64,000 bases of DNA from Ignavibacteriales bacterium (lineage in GTDB: Bacteria; Bacteroidota; Ignavibacteria; UBA10030), in NCBI GenBank assembly GCA_016192345.1, contig JACPUH010000021.1, positions 58,523 to 122,522 on the forward strand, read 5' to 3'. This document shows positions 31,129 to 38,582 of the stretch, one piece after another. A program made the position numbers and the translations under genes. Position 1 is the first letter of the stretch, and the number at the start of each line of letters is the position of its first letter. Below the pieces are notes generated by a model. The model was not told the DNA's origin. It saw only the letters and a program-made list of their open reading frames with translations, and ran no database searches.

Positions 31129-32019
31129 CTACTTCTTTCTTATAAGCCCCCTCAACACCCTCATATTCTCCACATCCTCCTTCATCTCCGGTCCCTTGGG
31201 TGTTTCCAGAATCTTGGGGATGTTGCTGAAGCGCGGGTCATTCATCAAAAAAGAGAATCCTTGAATCCCAATTTTCCCTTTCCCGATATGCTCATGCCTG
31301 TCAACGCGTGAACCGAGTTCCCGCTTCGAATCATTGACGTGAAACGCAACAAGCCGGTCCAATCCCACGATTGTGTCAAATTCCCTGAACGTTTCTTCGT
31401 ACCCCCGCTCCGTCGAAAGATCGTACCCGGCCGCGAACACATGGCATGTATCCAAGCAGACCGCCATCCTCTCCCGTTCTTCAACCAGGTCGATAATCTT
31501 CCTCAAATGCTCGAAGCGGTAACCGATGGCCGTCCCCTGCCCCGCCGTTGCCTCGATGACGCTTCGCACGCCGTATCCCGGGGTGCGTTGGTGGATGACG
31601 TTGAGCGACTCGGCAATACGTTTGATTCCCTCTGCTTCCCCTGCTCCCATGTGGGCACCGGGATGAAAGTTCAGGTACTGTACACCGAGCGCTTCACATC
31701 GGTCGAACTCATCCTTCAAGGCTTCCCTCGACTTCTTCAGAATTTCCTTGTCCACCGCGCAGAGGTTGATCAAATAGGTATCGTGGACCACCACCGGATG
31801 AATCCTTGATTCCCGAAGCAGCTTTTTGTAGGTTGACACATCCTCATCGGTCAGCGGTTTCCCTTTCCATTGATTGTTATTTTTGACAAACATCTGCATC
31901 GTGGTGCATCCGATCCGTTGTCCACGCTCGACGGCGGTGGCGACACCTCCAGCAATCGACATATGGGCGCCGAGGAGGAGGGTGCTGTTGTTCAAAGGAG
32001 ACATTGCACGCTTTTTCAT
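31129..32019 (-). CDS. nfo: endonuclease IV (apurinic/apyrimidinic endonuclease)
   Basis: LLLGAHMSIAGGVATAVERGQRIGCTTMQMFVKNNNQWKG matches the Nfo N-terminus, and the conserved His/Glu/Asp metal ligands occur through the TIM barrel. The true start may be the internal Met 15 nt downstream. Confidence 0.85.
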   Translation of the reverse strand: MKKRAMSPLNNSTLLLGAHMSIAGGVATAVERGQRIGCTTMQMFVKNNNQWKGKPLTDEDVSTYKKLLRESRIHPVVVHDTYLINLCAVDKEILKKSREALKDEFDRCEALGVQYLNFHPGAHMGAGEAEGIKRIAESLNVIHQRTPGYGVRSVIEATAGQGTAIGYRFEHLRKIIDLVEERERMAVCLDTCHVFAAGYDLSTERGYEETFREFDTIVGLDRLVAFHVNDSKRELGSRVDRHEHIGKGKIGIQGFSFLMNDPRFSNIPKILETPKGPEMKEDVENMRVLRGLIRKK

Positions 32020-33379: not shown

Positions 33380-35719
33380 TCACGGCTCTCCGACGGATGC
33401 AAAGAGCGGGATCTGGAACGTCTGAACGCCAACCCTGCCCCGATCCTGCGGGACGACACGGCGACCAGCCTTTCGCGGCGCCCCCACCCCCAGTTCCACT
33501 TTTAACCTCCCCACATCGTATCCCAGGGGAAAGAGAAGCGTCTCCACTGCTTTCAGGGCGAACTCCGTGTACTGTTCGATATCGTACCCGTCCTCGAACG
33601 CGTAGAGGGCCAGCGGTTTCGCTTTCTCCGGTTTCCTTGTTCCCGACTGGTCCAGGATGATGAACTCGATCATCTCCCCCGGGGCGAGCGACACCCCCAT
33701 CGCTTTGACCATCTTCGAGACCACGGCGCTGATGCTGTTGTTCTCGTACTCATCCGGTTCCTTGCTGATATGCCGTCGCAACACCAGCTCCATCGGGTTT
33801 GCCTTGCCGCTGCGCAGGACGGCGATATGGTTACGGGCGATCATAAGCAACTCGGGGAGCATGGCCTGCACCTCCGCCACATTCTGCGCGGCGGCCATGT
33901 GGTCCAGCATGGCCTGTTGCATGGTTTTGATGAACTGCGGCACGTCGCGGCGGCGCGATTCGATGCCGCGGATCTTGATGTCGTCATGGCGATACCAACC
34001 GACGTACCGGTTTGCCGTGGTAATCACCGGGTCCTGTTTCGAGGCAGGGAACAGGATCCAGCGATAGATCCCTTCCAACGAAATATCGATGCCAGCTTGC
34101 TTTCCGATCTCCGTCGCCAGTTCCTCGTAATCATGTTCCGTCGCCCCCGATTTCTTCAACCACACACAGTCGATGATCGCATGGAGCATCCGGAACCCGC
34201 CCCGCTCGGCCACCTCCTTCGCCCGGAGGATGGCATCGCGGGAGAAGGCATTCACGGCCTCGTGCGCCTCGATCTTCCCGAAGCGCGCGTTCTTATAGCC
34301 GAGATACCCGAAGCAGCTGACGAGCATCCACTTGAGGGCGTTCTGGCGGTGGTCATATTTCCGGAACTCAGCTTCGTTCTTTCCCCGGTTCAGCTTTTTG
34401 AGCCGTTTATAGTGGGACCGACGTTCCACCACGGCGCGCAGGGTCGCCGGGATCACCCCCTCGCGCTTTTCGCAGATCGTATAGCCCAATTCCGGGACGC
34501 GTTCGTTTCTGCAACAGCGGCAATTGACCGTCTCCGGCGAGACATTCCGCTCCACCATGATCGTCGGGTACATCGAGACAAAATCGAGTTCGGCAACCTC
34601 TTCATGATATCCAAGGGGCGGGTTGTAGATGAGTCCGCCCCGATCGGCCAGCATCAGCGTTGATGCCGGCTTGAACTCCTCCGGCTCACGCTTCTTTGCC
34701 GGGATCAGCACATTGTTGCGGTACGCCCACGACAGTTGCATGGAAGACATGGAGGTCCCGATGCTCGCACGCGCCTGGCGCTGGACCGGTATCTGCGTCA
34801 GCCGCGTCAGTTCGAACACCCCCTCCAGGTCCGCCTCACCCAGCGTGAAGGAATTTTTCTCGTCCAGGTGCCACCTCCCGGCCAGTTCGAAGGCTCCATC
34901 CTTGTGCACAATCTTGCCGTACTGGAAGAAGCTTGATTCCCGCGTGGTGGCGTATCCGGCGTGCGGATCACGGTTCAAGAGCAAAGGTACATTGAGCTGT
35001 TGGGCCAGACCGGTGATGTGTGGCAACAGGATCGAATCGCCGTACTCTGTGATCAGGACATCAGGGTCGCTCCGGTGCAGGTGCCAGTTAAGCGTCTCCA
35101 GGACCTCGCGCGGGTTGTGCTGTTCCAACGCGTACGTGCGCCCGTCATAACTCACCTCCAGTTGTACGTACTTCCGGTACTTCGGAGGGACGAACGAGTT
35201 CGCATCCCGCAGCCACAGAATGGACAGGGGCGGGAGGGAATAGTCCATGGCTTCACGCGCATCGTTGATCGTCCACGTGAGAAGATGGTTTTGTTCATCG
35301 ATGACGTACTCCCCGCGCGCAAGCGGGAACAGTCCCGTTTCATAGAGAAAGAGCTGCGGAACCAGGACATCCGAGTTGAAGAATGCGAAGTGGGGAAAGA
35401 ACCGCTCGTAGTACCAGACGACCTTCTTGAACTGGAGCGGGTTGTGGACAAAGACCTGCAGCACATCCCATGATTCGCCGGAGTAGATTTCCGTGTGCGT
35501 CGTCCGGTTAAAGGAGACCCGCGCGGGACACTGTGCGCCCAGCAGGAGCGCCCGTTTTGCATCGAAGTCGCTCAGGTGAAGAAAAAACGACGGGGTAAAC
35601 GGAGCGAGACAGCGATAGCGCCGGCCCGTTGTACTGAGAAGCCAGACGACAACCCCATCGGCTGACGGATAGACGTCGAAGAGATACCCATCAATGGTTT
35701 CTGATGTCCCGGGATTCAT
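33380..35719 (-). CDS. family-B DNA polymerase of archaeal type, exonuclease motifs lost and motif C divergent
   Basis: Track ORF trimmed to MNPGTSETIDGYLFDVYPSADGVVVWLL, which aligns with the PolB N-terminus (MILDVDYITEEGKPVIRLF). Motif A is intact (LDFVSMYPTIMVERNVSPETV) and motif B is KWMLVSCFGYLGYKN. Motif C reads MLHAIIDCVWL where YGDTDS is expected. Exo I is LSILWLRDANSF (no DxE) and Exo II is EYGDSILLPHI where YNGDSFDFPYL is expected. Confidence 0.8.
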   Translation of the reverse strand: MNPGTSETIDGYLFDVYPSADGVVVWLLSTTGRRYRCLAPFTPSFFLHLSDFDAKRALLLGAQCPARVSFNRTTHTEIYSGESWDVLQVFVHNPLQFKKVVWYYERFFPHFAFFNSDVLVPQLFLYETGLFPLARGEYVIDEQNHLLTWTINDAREAMDYSLPPLSILWLRDANSFVPPKYRKYVQLEVSYDGRTYALEQHNPREVLETLNWHLHRSDPDVLITEYGDSILLPHITGLAQQLNVPLLLNRDPHAGYATTRESSFFQYGKIVHKDGAFELAGRWHLDEKNSFTLGEADLEGVFELTRLTQIPVQRQARASIGTSMSSMQLSWAYRNNVLIPAKKREPEEFKPASTLMLADRGGLIYNPPLGYHEEVAELDFVSMYPTIMVERNVSPETVNCRCCRNERVPELGYTICEKREGVIPATLRAVVERRSHYKRLKKLNRGKNEAEFRKYDHRQNALKWMLVSCFGYLGYKNARFGKIEAHEAVNAFSRDAILRAKEVAERGGFRMLHAIIDCVWLKKSGATEHDYEELATEIGKQAGIDISLEGIYRWILFPASKQDPVITTANRYVGWYRHDDIKIRGIESRRRDVPQFIKTMQQAMLDHMAAAQNVAEVQAMLPELLMIARNHIAVLRSGKANPMELVLRRHISKEPDEYENNSISAVVSKMVKAMGVSLAPGEMIEFIILDQSGTRKPEKAKPLALYAFEDGYDIEQYTEFALKAVETLLFPLGYDVGRLKVELGVGAPRKAGRRVVPQDRGRVGVQTFQIPLFASVGEP

Positions 35720-35799
35720 GGGAGGATGCTCATGCTTGCTCTGTCTGTTCGGGAAGGATACGGGAATGGAAACGGAACAATCCAAAGATGCCCGTCACG

Positions 35800-36069
35800 T
35801 TACACGCGGTACACTTTTTCCTCCAGCCGTGCAAGGCGTTGTTTCAACTCGCGCATGACCCTCCCTTGCTCGACGATAATCGACATCATGATGCTTTCGA
35901 ACGGGATGGTCCGCATGGCATAAAAATTGGCCGCCAGTTGCCGCCGCGCGGAGCGAAAGACCTCATCGAAGAGTTCCTGGTCTTCCTTGCGGAGTCCCTG
36001 CCGGTACTTCGACCAGCTGACGATCTCGCTGTCGATGATGTTCGTGAAGGTCGGTACGGTACGTCCCAT
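35800..36069 (-). CDS. small hypothetical protein with C-terminal coiled-coil
   Basis: About 89 aa (MGRTVPTFTNIIDSEIVSWSKYRQGL...MRELKQRLARLEEKVYRV). A strong SD, GGAGGAG, sits 7 nt upstream of the ATG. Its 5' part overlaps the 3' tail of the upstream ORF in another frame. Confidence 0.5.
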   Translation of the reverse strand: MGRTVPTFTNIIDSEIVSWSKYRQGLRKEDQELFDEVFRSARRQLAANFYAMRTIPFESIMMSIIVEQGRVMRELKQRLARLEEKVYRV

Positions 36070-36790
36070 AACGGTCTCCTCCTTTCGCCGGGGGAACCTC
36101 ATTTCCGCTCCGGTGGATGATTGGTGTGCTGAGTTCCTCCTGCTCCAGGATCAATCGGGATACTTCCGGCCTGACATCCAGCCGGTAGACCCGGTCTGCA
36201 CGGGCCTTGACGGTTGTGAACAGGATGTTTCGCTCCTCCGGCAAAACCTGTCGGTCCGTGCATGCCAGGAGGAGGGAAACCCCGGCGCGCTTCAACTCAT
36301 GCAGCGTCGCCAGCACGCGCACCAGAATCTGTCGTACTTCACGGAACGGGGCCTGCTCGTCGTAGAACGTATCGAGCAAGCCGAGGATCAAGACGGTGTT
36401 GGCCTGCTGTTTCCGGCAAACCTCCGGCAACCGGTTCACGATGGTCTGTTCCATCTGGTAGCAGGTAAAGCTCCGTGAAACGAAAATACGACGCAGGAAA
36501 TCGTCGGGGTTGCGTTTCCCGTACTGTGCGAACCGGATGACCGCGTGAGCGTTGAACCGGTTCCCGCCGTCAGCCACCACGACATGGCCCCCTTCCGCCA
36601 GCATCGCGGAGGCAATGTTCATGGAGAGATCAAATACGGGCCGGTCGCCGTACAACAGGTACACCTTGCCGGGAGGCCGGGAAAACCGTTGCACCAGCTC
36701 CTCGGCCTGCAGGACGGGTCTTGCAAGAGAGGAGTGCGGCGCGGGGGGGGGCGGATATCGCCCGTGGGCTCCATGGCCTCCCATGCTCAT
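35963..36790 (-). CDS. RecA-fold (ImuA/SulA-like) protein with degenerate Walker A
   Basis: The track ORF extends to 37015, but its first 76 codons overlap the DUF72 gene. I prefer the Met at 36790, which overlaps the DUF72 stop (ATGA). The core GKVYLLYGDRPVFDLSMNIASAMLAEGGHVVVADGGNRFNAHAVIRFAQ ... TVLILGLLD follows the RecA/KaiC/ImuA strand-loop-helix pattern without GKT/S. The last ~35 aa are low-complexity and overlap the small ORF, so a frameshift or an earlier true stop is possible. Confidence 0.5.
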   Translation of the reverse strand: MSMGGHGAHGRYPPPPAPHSSLARPVLQAEELVQRFSRPPGKVYLLYGDRPVFDLSMNIASAMLAEGGHVVVADGGNRFNAHAVIRFAQYGKRNPDDFLRRIFVSRSFTCYQMEQTIVNRLPEVCRKQQANTVLILGLLDTFYDEQAPFREVRQILVRVLATLHELKRAGVSLLLACTDRQVLPEERNILFTTVKARADRVYRLDVRPEVSRLILEQEELSTPIIHRSGNEVPPAKGGDRYGTYRTDLHEHHRQRDRQLVEVPAGTPQGRPGTLR

Positions 36791-37704
36791 CGTTCCTCCG
36801 GATGCGGGGAAAACAACGGATGAAGGATATTCACCGGCGTACTGATCGGCTGGAGGACGGGAAACGCCTTCACGAGACGATCCGGCACCAGCACCGGATG
36901 CCGCGACCGCAGCAGGTGCCGCAACTGGAATCCGTTTATGAAGGAACAGGCTCCTCCATCGTTGTTGAAGCTCACATGCACGATTCCGGATTGCTCCGCC
37001 CGCTTCAAACGCCATGCGAGATCCTGGAGCTCACGGTCGTTATAGCAATAGTCATACCGGTATCCCCGCGTGGGGTCCCACCATGCCGCGGCATTCCTCC
37101 CCATCAAACGAAAATAGGAAACGCCATTCCACGCGGCATCGGTGAGCGGCATAGCGCGTCCCACTACGGGAACATCGATATTGACCAAATGGAATTTATT
37201 CTCCTGGAAAAAGTTGTACATCATCGGACTGTTCCATGAATTATGCCTCACCTCAACGAACAACCGGTACGGTTGGAAAGCACGCGCGAGTTCCATAAGA
37301 TAGAGGCGCCGTTCCCGGATATTGGTGAACGAGTACGGGAACTGCATCAGGAGGCCCCCCAGCCGGTTGGCCGCCGCAAGAGGTTCCAGAAGTCTGTGCG
37401 TTGCAAGGACATCCCCCTGGTCAGCCGTGCCCGTATGGGTGAACCCGCGGAACAATTTCACCGAGGAGAAAAGAAAGTGCTTGTTGGCGGCAACATCCCG
37501 CAGCCACCGGCGGGCATGGATCGGCGTCAACGCCGAACTGTAGAATGACGAGTGAATTTCCACACTATCAAAAAACTGGCTGTAATACTCCAGTTTCCGG
37601 AACCCCCGCTTTGTCCCCGGGGGATAAAATACCCGGTCGAACGGCTCCAGGTCCCATCCCCCCATCCCGATAAAGATCTTCGAACGATCGACATGCATGG
37701 ACAC
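36787..37704 (-). CDS. DUF72 (YecE/UPF0759) family protein
   Basis: 305 aa. IFIGMGGWDLEPFDRVFYPPGTKRGFRKLEYYSQFFDSVEIHSSFYS matches the DUF72 N-terminal signature. GGAGGG lies upstream of the ATG. Confidence 0.75.
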   Translation of the reverse strand: MSMHVDRSKIFIGMGGWDLEPFDRVFYPPGTKRGFRKLEYYSQFFDSVEIHSSFYSSALTPIHARRWLRDVAANKHFLFSSVKLFRGFTHTGTADQGDVLATHRLLEPLAAANRLGGLLMQFPYSFTNIRERRLYLMELARAFQPYRLFVEVRHNSWNSPMMYNFFQENKFHLVNIDVPVVGRAMPLTDAAWNGVSYFRLMGRNAAAWWDPTRGYRYDYCYNDRELQDLAWRLKRAEQSGIVHVSFNNDGGACSFINGFQLRHLLRSRHPVLVPDRLVKAFPVLQPISTPVNILHPLFSPHPEER

Positions 37705-37854
37705 CCTCCTTTAAAAAAGGCGTCATCGTTCGACCTCGCTCACGATGACATGATTTTGTATTGCTCGAGAAGCTGAACATAGAACATCACTCAGCTCCCG
37801 GTGACCACTTGACACCAACACGAAAATTGTCTACATTGGCCTCGTCAAGGATGC

Positions 37855-37898
37855 GACATATTTGTCGCTTTGTCAAGAGAAAAAATGACAAAAATGTC
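37855..37898. promoter_or_regulatory. pair of GACA-N4-TGTC inverted repeats upstream of the LexA-like gene (candidate operator)
   Basis: gacatatttgtc at 37855-37866 and gacaaaaatgtc at 37887-37898. Both are 12-nt sites, 32 bp apart centre to centre, and 34-77 nt upstream of the ATG at 37932. Confidence 0.35.
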
Positions 37899-37931: not shown

Positions 37932-38582
37932 ATGAAACAATCCATTGCACAACGCATCCGCATTGCGAGAACGGAGAAGGAGATCGAACAGGGGACGCTT
38001 GCCGCAAAACTTGACGTTGCGCGACGCACCGTCCAACGCTGGGAAAAGGGGGAACAGGTGCCCGACAGTAATTACCTGATGCGCATCGCGAAAATCACCG
38101 GCGTGACACCCCATTGGTTGCTGACCGGAGACGGGGATATGTACGCCAAACCATCGGAAGCGGCCATTCTTCCGCTCGCCACCCAACGCTATAAAAAAGT
38201 CGAGCTCGTCAGGCTTCCCCTCCTCTCCTCCGTCCCCGGCGGGGCGCCAAGCCTCATCTTCCATCCCGACTATGTCGAGAAGTATATCACCGTGGACGAT
38301 ATGCGGGACCCGAACGCGTTCGCGCTGGAGGTTAAGGGGAACAGCATGGCACCGCGCATCGAGGATGGCGACATCATCGTGGTGAGCCCCCGGATCGAGG
38401 CGCGGAGCGGCGATATCTGCGTGGTGCGGATCAACGAAGAGGATACCGTCAAGAAGATCAAGATCGAGGAGCGGTACCTCCACCTTATCCCTCTCAACCC
38501 GGAGTACGAGCCGATGGTGGTACAGAAAAAAGACGTGGCGTTCATGTGGCGGGTGGTGAAGGTCATTAAAGAGATCGGATAG
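37932..38582 (+). CDS. LexA-like transcriptional repressor: XRE-type HTH plus S24 peptidase domain
   Basis: Trimmed to MKQSIAQRIRIARTEKEIEQGTLAAKLDVARRTVQRWEKG (HTH_XRE). The C-terminal S24 domain has GNSMAP (Ser nucleophile) and a downstream VKKIKIE Lys. It is divergent from the DUF72/ImuA-like/PolB operon. Confidence 0.8.
   Translation: MKQSIAQRIRIARTEKEIEQGTLAAKLDVARRTVQRWEKGEQVPDSNYLMRIAKITGVTPHWLLTGDGDMYAKPSEAAILPLATQRYKKVELVRLPLLSSVPGGAPSLIFHPDYVEKYITVDDMRDPNAFALEVKGNSMAPRIEDGDIIVVSPRIEARSGDICVVRINEEDTVKKIKIEERYLHLIPLNPEYEPMVVQKKDVAFMWRVVKVIKEIG

What the first reader, a model, noticed from the sequence alone, without database searches (positions are those of the whole stretch)
33380..35719. 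Bacterial archaeal-like PolB with lost exonuclease motifs and altered motif C
The N-terminus and the palm domain align convincingly with archaeal PolB. IDGYLFDVYPSADGVVVWL aligns with ILDVDYITEEGKPVIRLF, and LDFVSMYPTIM is motif A (DxxSLYPSI). Exo I is LSILWLRDAN where the catalytic FDIET is expected. Exo II is EYGDSILLPHI where YNGDSFDFPYL is expected. Motif C reads HAIIDC where YxDTDS is expected, so only the second Asp is retained. A proofreading-dead polymerase that may also be catalytically weakened fits a translesion or accessory polymerase, or a non-catalytic scaffold. It does not fit a replicase.
Basis: partly seen in the sequence, partly recalled or inferred. Interest (0 to 1): 0.75.

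Follow-up and report, generated by a model that had tools for sequence, protein, structure and literature searches.

The report
Known bacterial PolB2 translesion polymerase operon
The gene is a bacterial copy of the archaeal "PolB2" DNA polymerase, a proofreading-free repair polymerase that sits in its usual three-gene operon, and this exact protein has already been catalogued and modelled in a 2025 paper, so the finding is correct but not new.

Summary
Window 33380-35719 (minus strand) encodes a 779-aa family-B DNA polymerase with an intact motif A, a motif C reading HAIID instead of YxDTD, and no exonuclease carboxylates.

It is not an oddity. HxxxD in motif C plus a decayed exonuclease domain is the published signature of the PolB2 group: archaeal B2 and its bacterial offshoot G2.

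The gene is the last in the canonical bacterial PolB2 operon:
- DUF72
- iRadA, a RadA core without Walker motifs
- PPB2, an 89-aa protein starting MGRT
- PolB2

A divergently transcribed CI-like S24 repressor gene lies upstream.

The supplement of Timinskas et al. 2025 (PMC11791011) lists exactly these three proteins (MBI3110572.1, MBI3110574.1, MBI3110573.1; Ignavibacteriales bacterium) and an AlphaFold-Multimer model of their complex.

The archaeal orthologue Dpo2 is a robust, exonuclease-free mismatch and lesion extender.

Novelty: already known. Three side observations may be new:
- a conserved paired GACA-W4-TGTC operator
- an out-of-frame overlap of iRadA and PPB2
- a C-terminal QIPLF candidate clamp motif

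The parts
33380..35719 (-). polB2: 779-aa family-B DNA polymerase of the PolB2 (bacterial G2) group, equal to MBI3110572.1
   Evidence: NCBIfam best hits are NF004418 and NF004416 at 400 and 387 bits (below their cut-offs), against 170 bits or less for the three DNA polymerase I models and 55 or less for the Pol II models. The N-terminal 416 aa are 35% identical to Methanomassiliicoccus PolB2 (197 bits).
34565..34591 (-). Motif A, ELDFVSMYP (residues 377-385); the catalytic Asp D379 and the motif-A Tyr Y384 are retained
   Evidence: HMMER alignment to Pab PolB. Invariant in 47 homologues.
34298..34333 (-). Motif B, KWMLVSCFGYLG (463-474). The Lys is kept. The canonical Asn and Tyr are replaced (N->V467, Y->F470).
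34166..34183 (-). Motif C, HAIIDC (513-518): the PolB2 signature HxxxD (IID, as in S. islandicus Dpo2 401-IID-403)
   Evidence: The supplement records 'HAIIDCVWL 513 IID' for this protein.
35015..35047 (-). Degenerate Exo II, EYGDSILLPHI (225-235); the catalytic Asp is replaced by Leu
35198..35284 (-). Region holding the two candidate Exo I strands (LLTWTIND 146-153 and LSILWLRDAN 165-174); neither has DxE
34634..34675 (-). FKPA (FxxA, RadA/Rad51-oligomerisation-like) followed by the D359-R360 'D(K/R)' motif: FKPASTLMLADRGG (349-362)
   Evidence: F349, K350, A352, D359, R360, G361 and G362 are invariant. The role in iRadA and PPB2 contacts comes from the published models.
33401..33415 (-). C-terminal QIPLF (769-773), a candidate beta-clamp-binding motif at the end of a variable tail
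   Evidence: L772 and F773 are nearly invariant. Twenty-four of 78 relatives match [QEK]-x-[LIV]-P-[LI]-[FY] and 12 match Q-[LI]-x-[LI]-F; the two sets overlap. The tail has pLDDT below 50. The function is inferred and is not recorded for this protein in the published table.
35800..36069 (-). ppb2: 89-aa helical partner of PolB2, starting MGRTVPTFT; equal to MBI3110573.1
   Evidence: It is 42% identical over its full length to Methanomassiliicoccus PPB2. The N-terminus MGRTVPTFTN(I/L)I recurs, with few substitutions, in the 72 related loci that have both genes.
35963..36790 (-). iRadA: 275-aa inactivated RadA/Rad51 core without the N-terminal domain; equal to MBI3110574.1. Its last 107 nt overlap ppb2 in another frame.
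   Evidence: Only RadA/Rad51 are hit in PDB (profile E = 3e-5; Foldseek E ~4e-10). Walker B Asp is replaced by Gly. The P-loop is reduced to GDRP.
36787..37698 (-). DUF72 gene (303 aa), first gene of the operon; its stop overlaps the iRadA start by 4 nt
   Evidence: The link between DUF72 and PolB2 operons is published.
37932..38582 (+). Divergent repressor gene: HTH_3 (PF01381) plus Peptidase_S24, 216 aa. This is the same architecture as the 'non-canonical LexA' of Bacteroidetes.
37855..37866 (.). Operator candidate 1, GACATATTTGTC (GACA-W4-TGTC)
37887..37898 (.). Operator candidate 2, GACAAAAATGTC
37809..37837 (+). Sigma-70-like promoter (TTGACA-17-TACATT) for the repressor gene, just upstream of the two operators
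   Evidence: This is a consensus match only.

Best explanation
The ORF is the catalytic subunit of a bacterial PolB2 mutasome.

What PolB2 is: a family-B polymerase that arose in archaea and, according to the published trees, moved into bacteria once together with its operon.

How it most likely works:
- Its exonuclease domain is a structural remnant without the carboxylates needed for proofreading.
- Its polymerase site keeps the two metal-binding aspartates, one in motif A and the second Asp of motif C. A conserved His stands where other family-B enzymes have Tyr.
- By homology with Sulfolobus Dpo2, it inserts nucleotides accurately on undamaged DNA, inserts poorly opposite lesions, and efficiently extends mismatched or lesion-paired primer ends. 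That makes it an 'extender' in two-polymerase lesion bypass.
- It is predicted to work as PolB2 + iRadA + a PPB2 trimer. iRadA docks on an FxxA motif of PolB2. The MGRT arm of one PPB2 subunit reaches the cleft near the DNA.
- A C-terminal QIPLF may tether it to the beta clamp.
- Expression is probably damage-inducible. The operon is transcribed divergently from a CI-like S24 repressor gene, and two GACA-W4-TGTC palindromes lie between them.

Shown here: family membership, motif states, operon composition and its conservation, operator conservation.

Inferred: enzymatic activity, complex formation, clamp binding, SOS regulation.
For: Identity:
- The published supplement lists this exact trio and its operon class (1a iRadA-PPB2-PolB2, neighbour DUF72, motif 'HAIIDCVWL', IID). 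It also lists a PolB2 + iRadA + 3xPPB2 AlphaFold-Multimer model with pLDDT 80.7 and ipTM 0.825.

Independent tests made here:
- NCBIfam scores are 400 and 387 bits for NF004418 and NF004416, against 170 or less for the three archaeal DNA polymerase I models and 55 or less for Pol II.
- BLASTP against archaeal proteins copied from the supplement gives: PolB2 35% over 423 columns (E = 1e-59), PPB2 42% over its full length (E = 1e-20), iRadA 32% over 140 aa (E = 1e-14).
- Canonical PolBs of PDB align to the N-terminal/exo half at only 13-17 bits.
- Motif C is HxxxD, and FxxA and DR are invariant.
- The iRadA model has a RadA-core fold, and only RadA/Rad51/Dmc1 are hit.
- 551 GTDB species genomes encode a relative.
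- The order iRadA-PPB2-PolB2 is found in 72 of 82 loci held here, which include the 80 best of those genomes.
- The operator pair is present in 23 of 23 loci with the divergent repressor gene. It is also upstream of the operon in at least 16 loci without an adjacent repressor gene. Total: 103 sites against 14 expected.

Biochemistry of the family: (Dpo2). Damage induction and mutagenesis.
Against: - No bacterial PolB2 has been tested biochemically or genetically in the literature I could search. Activity is extrapolated from a crenarchaeal thermophile enzyme.
- My own AlphaFold2 model is mediocre (mean pLDDT 66.7, with low-confidence palm segments). I could not inspect active-site geometry.
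- The published table records no clamp motif for this protein.
- The operators in the window lie 150-190 bp from the DUF72 start and next to the repressor promoter. Control of the polymerase operon here is plausible but not shown.
- The S24 repressor has no obvious Ala-Gly cleavage site (sequence PGGAP).
Confidence: 0.87

Rival explanations
1. A catalytically dead PolB paralogue that serves only as a structural or scaffold subunit. This was the original 2008 reading of the PolB2 family and the reader's alternative.
For: The first Asp of motif C, the motif-B Asn and Tyr, and all exonuclease carboxylates are replaced. The family was first described as 'inactivated' (PMC2527604).
Against: Dpo2 has the same HxxxD/IID motif and is as active as the replicase Dpo1. 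The two metal-ligand Asp residues, the motif-B Lys and the motif-A Tyr Y384 are invariant across 47 homologues at about 70% overall identity. [quoted passage not shown]
Confidence: 0.07
2. A replicative or element-borne PolB: from a phage, plasmid or casposon, or protein-primed.
For: Family-B polymerases in bacteria are often carried by mobile elements. This rests on general knowledge.
Against: - Chromosomal housekeeping neighbours: AnmK, endonuclease IV, an MFS transporter.
- Even GC content across the window, 0.52-0.59.
- Conserved synteny in dozens of species genomes, including complete chromosomes of 3.6-4.2 Mb.
- No integrase, Cas1 or terminal-protein genes among the neighbouring genes that were scanned.
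- No proofreading site, which replicases normally keep.
Confidence: 0.02
3. An E. coli Pol II-type SOS polymerase (polB).
For: It is bacterial, family B, and next to an S24 repressor gene.
Against: Pol II NCBIfam models score 55 bits or less against cut-offs of 570-1435. Pol II is a single subunit with an intact exonuclease. Here the exonuclease motifs are lost and the iRadA and PPB2 partners are present.
Confidence: 0.01

Closest known systems
Bacterial PolB2 ('G2') mutasome operon iRadA-PPB2-PolB2 (Timinskas, Timinskas & Venclovas 2025, PMC11791011; Kazlauskas et al. 2020, PMC7544198; Makarova et al. 2014; Rogozin et al. 2008)
   Same: Everything tested matches: motif C HxxxD, decayed exonuclease, FxxA plus DR, gene order, the PPB2 MGRT arm, the inactivated RadA core, and the DUF72 neighbour. 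The exact proteins are in the published dataset.
   Different: The published row lists no LexA and no clamp motif for this locus. Here a CI-like HTH_3-S24 repressor gene (not the canonical PF01726 LexA) lies two genes upstream with a conserved paired operator, and the PolB2 tail ends in QIPLF.
Sulfolobus islandicus / Saccharolobus solfataricus Dpo2 (archaeal PolB2)
   Same: IID/HxxxD motif C, no exonuclease site, and association with PPB2 and iRadA. This is the basis for predicting an exonuclease-free extender polymerase.
   Different: - Dpo2 is much smaller, with most of the exonuclease domain deleted.
- Its gene order is PPB2-PolB2-iRadA.
- In archaea the PolB2 neighbourhood is enriched in orc1/cdc6 rather than an S24 repressor.
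- It uses PCNA rather than the beta clamp.
E. coli Pol V mutasome (UmuD'2C-RecA) and ImuA-ImuB-DnaE2 cassettes
   Same: Same logic: a damage-regulated, multi-subunit mutagenic polymerase that recruits a RecA/Rad51-family protein and a small subunit.
   Different: The catalytic subunit belongs to a different family (Y or C rather than B). The partners are not homologous, apart from the RecA superfamily.
Eukaryotic Pol zeta (Rev3)
   Same: A B-family polymerase with an inactivated exonuclease, damage-linked, with an extender role and multiple subunits.
   Different: The accessory subunits are unrelated, and it keeps the canonical DTD motif C. The second point rests on my own knowledge.
E. coli Pol II
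   Same: A bacterial family-B polymerase, SOS-linked, with a C-terminal QLxLF-type clamp motif.
   Different: It has an intact proofreading site, is a single subunit, and belongs to a different clade.

Membership tests
PolB2 group of family-B DNA polymerases (archaeal B2 / bacterial G2) | Family-B polymerase domain and overall fold | tested here: met
   Pfam DNA_pol_B E = 1e-33. PDB PolBs E = 1e-46. Foldseek gives full-length matches at E ~5e-29.
PolB2 group of family-B DNA polymerases (archaeal B2 / bacterial G2) | Closer to archaeal PolB2 than to PolB1, PolB3 or Pol II | tested here: met
   NCBIfam 400 and 387 bits for NF004418 and NF004416, against 170 or less and 55 or less for the other archaeal and Pol II models. 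The N-terminal half is 31-35% identical to archaeal PolB2 (189-197 bits), against 13-17 bits to canonical PolBs. I built no tree of my own. That NF004416/NF004418 are PolB2 models is my inference from their names and lengths. The protein is in the published PolB2 set.
PolB2 group of family-B DNA polymerases (archaeal B2 / bacterial G2) | Motif C is HxxxD (first Asp of DxD lost, His conserved) | tested here: met
   HAIID. H513, I515 and D517 are invariant in 47 sequences. Definition.
PolB2 group of family-B DNA polymerases (archaeal B2 / bacterial G2) | Exonuclease active site lost (Exo I not conserved, Exo II mutated) | tested here: met
   The Exo II Asp is replaced by Leu. No DxE in either Exo I candidate. 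Definition. Kazlauskas et al. say Exo III is missing in B2/G2; here HMMER still pairs W..D with Y..D, a weak match.
PolB2 group of family-B DNA polymerases (archaeal B2 / bacterial G2) | Conserved D(K/R) motif preceded by a RadA-oligomerisation-like beta-alpha (FxxA) element | tested here: met
   F349-K-P-A352 ... D359-R360 is invariant. Equating it with the published motif rests on position and on the archaeal alignment (FKTAGALIVSDRGG).
PolB2 group of family-B DNA polymerases (archaeal B2 / bacterial G2) | Active polymerase without 3'-5' exonuclease; mismatch and lesion extender | not testable with these tools
   Known only for Sulfolobus Dpo2.
PolB2 mutasome operon | iRadA: RadA/Rad51 ATPase-core fold, no N-terminal domain, ATPase site lost | tested here: met
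   Profile search hits only RadA/Rad51 (E = 3e-5). The model core has pLDDT above 90. The top 50 Foldseek hits are all RadA, Rad51, Rad51-paralogue or Dmc1 entries, with the best TM to 'RadA C-terminal ATPase domain' constructs. Walker B Asp is replaced by Gly, and the P-loop is GDRP instead of GxxxxGK[ST]. It is 32% identical to archaeal iRadA.
PolB2 mutasome operon | PPB2: small helical protein (about 80-110 aa) with the N-terminal MGRT arm | tested here: met
   89 aa, starting MGRTVPTFT. 42% and 37% identical to Methanomassiliicoccus and Lokiarchaeota PPB2. 655 homologues were found, and all 120 listed carry PF26485.1. The fold was not modelled here.
PolB2 mutasome operon | Bacterial gene order iRadA-PPB2-PolB2 on one strand | tested here: met
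   Found in the window and in 72 of 82 related loci; in the other 10 tblastn did not find both partner genes, several being short contigs or loci with PolB2 near the contig end.
PolB2 mutasome operon | Physical heteropentamer PolB2 + iRadA + 3 PPB2 | not testable with these tools
   No multimer modelling is available here. A published AlphaFold-Multimer model exists for this exact trio (ipTM 0.825). No experiment exists.
PolB2 mutasome operon | DNA-damage-inducible expression | tested here: inconclusive
   There is a divergent S24 repressor gene and a conserved paired palindrome at the operon promoter in relatives. There are no expression data.
E. coli Pol II-type PolB | Intact Exo I/II/III carboxylates; matches the Pol II equivalog models | tested here: not met
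Non-canonical LexA of Bacteroidetes (Sanchez-Osuna et al. 2021) | PF01381 HTH plus an S24 peptidase domain with the Ser-Lys dyad | tested here: met
   HTH_3 E = 1e-10, Peptidase_S24 E = 3e-26. GNSM and VKK are visible in the sequence. Architecture as. The Ala-Gly cleavage site is not obvious (PGGAP).
Non-canonical LexA of Bacteroidetes (Sanchez-Osuna et al. 2021) | Binds CTAA-N5-TTAG or GGA-N5-TCC | tested here: not met
   The conserved palindrome here is GACA-W4-TGTC, against the published motifs. Binding itself was not tested.

The most novel reading that the evidence does not exclude
The polymerase itself is known. The evidence does not exclude, and in fact favours, the following: in Ignavibacteria the PolB2 operon is the core target of an undescribed SOS-type circuit. 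In that circuit a CI-like HTH_3-S24 repressor would bind a paired GACA-W4-TGTC operator. That palindrome is different from the two published for Bacteroidetes non-canonical LexA proteins.

A longer shot concerns the conserved +1-offset overlap of iRadA and PPB2 (38-107 nt in all but one of 46 loci). It might allow some iRadA-PPB2 fusion protein to be made by frameshifting, mimicking the in-frame fusions seen in other bacteria.
Probability: 0.5. Interest if true: 0.35.

Novelty: already known. Interest (0 to 1): 0.15.

Why it matters
For the scan, this is a correct call on a real and unusual-looking enzyme, but the family has been described since 2008. It was re-interpreted as an active translesion extender in 2020-2022. 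Its bacterial operons, including this very locus, were catalogued and modelled in 2025.

What remains open is experimental. In the literature I could search, no bacterial PolB2 mutasome has been purified or tested genetically.

The locus offers a compact candidate for that work:
- the operon
- its repressor
- a clear operator
- a possible clamp motif

The operator could also serve to define the damage regulon of Ignavibacteria.

Tried and rejected
- **AFDB fold search.** I wanted a Foldseek search of the PolB2 model against afdb50 to see archaeal PolB2 models as nearest folds. The library was not available. I used sequences copied from the paper's supplement instead.
- **Structure-based residue alignment of the active sites.** The model is only moderate (pLDDT 66.7), no coordinates are exposed, and fold search gives no residue alignment. 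The Exo I register stays unresolved.
- **Pfam for PPB2 and iRadA.** The local Pfam copy gives nothing, although the precomputed annotation shows PF26485.1 on PPB2 homologues. I could not look up that family's name.
- **iRadA tail as a conserved peptide.** The apparent conservation of the tail across loci is explained by the conserved PPB2 coding sequence in the other frame. The stop position varies (38-107 nt, one locus 233) and the tail is predicted disordered. I do not claim a functional tail.
- **iRadA clamp motif.** A 'QLFLE'-like stretch in relatives is RLILE in the window and probably a core strand. I did not pursue it.
- **Third GACA-N4-TGTC in the window (19126).** It has a G/C-containing spacer, and about one match per 64 kb is expected by chance. 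I treated it as chance.
- **Mobile-element or replicase reading.** Rejected on context and composition.
Full report
**1. The observation**

The window carries a minus-strand ORF at 33380..35785. It matches Pfam DNA_pol_B (E = 1e-33).

By sequence it is closest to the Pyrococcus and Thermococcus PolBs of the PDB (E = 1e-46). An AlphaFold2 model built on 47 homologues is moderate: mean pLDDT 66.7, with a good N-terminal/exo half and a patchy palm. It aligns to the same structures over its full length (Foldseek E ~5e-29, TM ~0.5, 20% identity).

- Motif A: LDFVSMYPTIM against LDFRSLYPSII.
- Motif C: HAIIDC against YIDTDG. The first Asp is replaced by Ile and the second is kept.
- Exo II: EYGDSILLP against YNGDNFDFP. 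The catalytic Asp is replaced by Leu.

The position of Exo I is uncertain.
- HMMER pairs LLTWTIND (146-153) with LLAFDIET.
- A family profile does not align this region at all.
- Kazlauskas et al. 2020 state that Exo I is not conserved in this group.
- Neither candidate has DxE, so the conclusion that no proofreading site exists holds.

**2. What it is**

The NCBIfam scan already pointed away from ordinary archaeal PolB. Two models named 'type B DNA-directed DNA polymerase' (NF004418, NF004416) score 400 and 387 bits, both below their cut-offs. The three DNA polymerase I models score 170 or less, and the Pol II models 55 or less.

The literature search then found the explanation. The PolB2 group comprises archaeal B2 and a bacterial offshoot called G2. 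It is defined by three features:
- a decayed exonuclease domain
- motif C reading HxxxD instead of YxDTD
- a conserved D(K/R) motif

It was called 'inactivated' in 2008. However, Sulfolobus Dpo2 (401-IID-403) is a robust polymerase without exonuclease. It copies undamaged DNA accurately, inserts poorly opposite lesions, and extends mismatched or lesion-paired ends efficiently. It is also required for damage-induced mutagenesis.

Timinskas et al. 2025 showed that PolB2 genes sit in operons with two partners. One is iRadA, an inactivated RadA. The other is PPB2, a small helical protein with an N-terminal MGRT arm. In bacteria the order is always iRadA-PPB2-PolB2, often next to lexA, DUF72 or SRAP genes.

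**3. The window has exactly this anatomy**

Upstream of the polymerase, on the same strand:
- **PPB2** (35800..36069, 89 aa) starts MGRTVPTFT.
- **iRadA** (35963..36790, 275 aa).
- **DUF72** (36787..37698). Its stop overlaps the iRadA start by 4 nt.
- A divergent **HTH_3 + Peptidase_S24 repressor gene** lies at 37932..38582.

Evidence for iRadA:
- In PDB it hits only RadA/Rad51, by sequence profile (E = 3e-5) and by fold. The top 50 Foldseek hits are all RadA, Rad51, Rad51-paralogue or Dmc1 entries, and it fits the 'C-terminal ATPase domain' constructs best.
- Its model core has pLDDT above 90.
- The Walker B Asp is Gly, and the P-loop is reduced to GDRP.

Direct BLASTP against archaeal proteins copied from the paper's supplement gives:

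| Protein | Best archaeal match | Identity | E-value |
|---|---|---|---|
| PolB2, N-terminal 416 aa | Methanomassiliicoccus PolB2 | 35% (197 bits) | 1e-59 |
| PPB2, full length | Methanomassiliicoccus PPB2 | 42% | 1e-20 |
| iRadA, 140 aa | Methanomassiliicoccus iRadA | 32% | 1e-14 |

By contrast, canonical PolBs align to the N-terminal/exo half at only 13-17 bits.

In PolB2, F349-K-P-A352 (an FxxA element, as in RadA/Rad51 oligomerisation) followed by D359-R360 is invariant in the family. This matches the published iRadA-docking and D(K/R) motifs.

**4. It is already in the literature, literally**

Supplementary data file 1 of PMC11791011 has a row for PolB2 MBI3110572.1, iRadA MBI3110574.1 and PPB2 MBI3110573.1. 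The organism is an Ignavibacteriales bacterium (taxid 2049428). The operon class is '1a (iRadA-PPB2-PolB2)', the neighbour is DUF72, and motif C is recorded as 'HAIIDCVWL', position 513, 'IID'. The sequence begins MNPGTSETIDGYLFDVYPSADGVV…, identical to the window protein as far as the supplement shows it.

Data file 2 lists an AlphaFold-Multimer model of PolB2 + iRadA + 3xPPB2 for this trio: pLDDT 80.7, pTM 0.83, ipTM 0.825. The PPB2 protein is also identical to NCBI HYZ01_03270.

**5. Distribution and conservation**

- The homologue search returned 3619 proteins. The best 120 are 68-91% identical, and those that carry a source name come from Bacteroidota/Ignavibacteria MAGs.
- 551 GTDB species genomes encode a relative. 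The best 80 are labelled Ignavibacteria/Ignavibacteriota or Bacteroidota/Bacteroidetes (a few as Chitinophagaceae, Chitinophagales, Chlorobiaceae or Bacteroidia), apart from one Latescibacterota and two unclassified 'bacterium' MAGs. They include an Ignavibacterium album MAG and complete chromosomes.
- Motifs A, B and C are invariant in 47 sequences.
- The order iRadA-PPB2-PolB2 holds in 72 of 82 loci. In the other 10 tblastn did not find both partner genes; several are short contigs or have PolB2 near the contig end.
- GC content is even across the window, and the neighbours are housekeeping genes. This is a chromosomal operon, not a mobile element.

**6. Mechanism, and what is shown versus inferred**

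Shown here: family membership, motif states, operon composition and conservation.

Inferred from the archaeal enzyme and the published models:
- The protein is an active, exonuclease-free extender polymerase.
- It works as a heteropentamer.
- iRadA binds the FxxA element.
- The MGRT arm of PPB2 reaches the cleft near the DNA.

I rate 'bacterial PolB2 mutasome catalytic subunit' at about 0.87 overall. Membership is near certain. The activity is less certain, because I found no tested bacterial member.

The scaffold hypothesis (0.07) is disfavoured by the Dpo2 data and by invariance of the metal ligands. An element-borne replicase (0.02) and a Pol II-type enzyme (0.01) are excluded by context and by the failed membership tests.

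**7. Side observations that may be new**

(a) **Operator.** Two GACA-W4-TGTC palindromes (37855-37866 and 37887-37898) lie between the operon and the repressor gene, just downstream of a sigma-70-like promoter.
- The same pair occurs in all 23 related loci with the divergent repressor gene.
- It also occurs within about 0-150 bp upstream of iRadA or PolB2 in at least 16 loci where the repressor gene is not adjacent.
- In total there are 103 sites in 946 kb against 14 expected.
- The repressor has the architecture of the Bacteroidetes 'non-canonical LexA' (PF01381 + S24). The published motifs are CTAA-N5-TTAG and GGA-N5-TCC.
- I found no paper describing an Ignavibacteria SOS box.

(b) **Overlap.** The iRadA frame runs 107 nt into PPB2.
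- An overlap of more than 20 nt occurs in 46 of 72 loci, with a +1 frame offset in 45 of the 46.
- The overlap is 38-107 nt in all but one locus, which has 233 nt.
- The tail is predicted disordered and its length varies. It is probably a tolerated read-through rather than a functional peptide.
- It makes gene callers miss PPB2.

(c) **Clamp motif.** The variable, disordered PolB2 tail ends in QIPLF, or QELPLF in relatives. This is a plausible beta-clamp motif that the published table does not record for this protein.

(d) **Cysteine cluster.** An invariant CxCC-x12-C cluster (C400, C402, C403, C416) is shared with some archaeal PolB2.

**8. Verdict**

Its translesion interpretation is right, and its 'weakened or scaffold' alternative is probably wrong. 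The feature is already known, down to the individual protein. Interest for the scan is therefore low (0.15). The operator is the only part that might merit separate follow-up.

Noticed in passing
window 37855-37866 and 37887-37898; related loci L003-L082: A paired GACA-W4-TGTC palindrome lies between the PolB2 operon and the divergent HTH_3-S24 repressor gene. It is conserved in 23 of 23 loci with that arrangement. It is also present just upstream of iRadA or PolB2 in at least 16 loci without an adjacent repressor gene (103 sites against 14 expected in 946 kb). It differs from the published Bacteroidetes non-canonical LexA motifs.
   Followed up: partly
window 35963-36069 (minus strand): The iRadA reading frame continues 107 nt into the PPB2 gene, with a +1 frame offset. 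An overlap of more than 20 nt occurs in 46 of 72 related loci (38-107 nt in all but one, 233 nt in L063), and the offset is +1 in 45 of the 46. The encoded tail is predicted disordered. Gene callers on two metagenome contigs miss PPB2 and call a spurious 63-aa ORF on the other strand.
   Followed up: partly
window 33401-33415 (PolB2 residues 769-773): The variable, low-confidence C-terminal tail of PolB2 ends in a conserved QIPLF (QELPLF in many relatives). This is a candidate beta-clamp-binding motif not recorded for this protein in the published PolB2 table.
   Followed up: partly
window 34472-34522 (PolB2 residues 400-416): An invariant cysteine cluster C-x-C-C-x12-C (ETVNCRCC…YTIC) is also present in Methanomassiliicoccus and Halorubrum PolB2 but not in Acidianus PolB2. 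It could be a metal site or disulfides. The role is unknown.
   Followed up: no
window 37722-37749: A perfect 8-bp inverted repeat, GTCATCGT-N12-ACGATGAC, lies immediately upstream of the DUF72 start codon. I did not check it in relatives.
   Followed up: no
window 31129-32019 (minus strand): An endonuclease IV-like gene (AP_endonuc_2, E = 7e-61) lies about 1.4 kb beyond the end of polB2, separated from it by the convergent AnmK gene. It is another DNA-repair gene nearby but not part of the operon.
   Followed up: no
PPB2 homologues: All 120 listed PPB2 homologues carry a precomputed Pfam hit, PF26485.1, which is absent from the local Pfam copy. A curated family for PPB2 therefore seems to exist already, but I could not look up its name.
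   Followed up: partly
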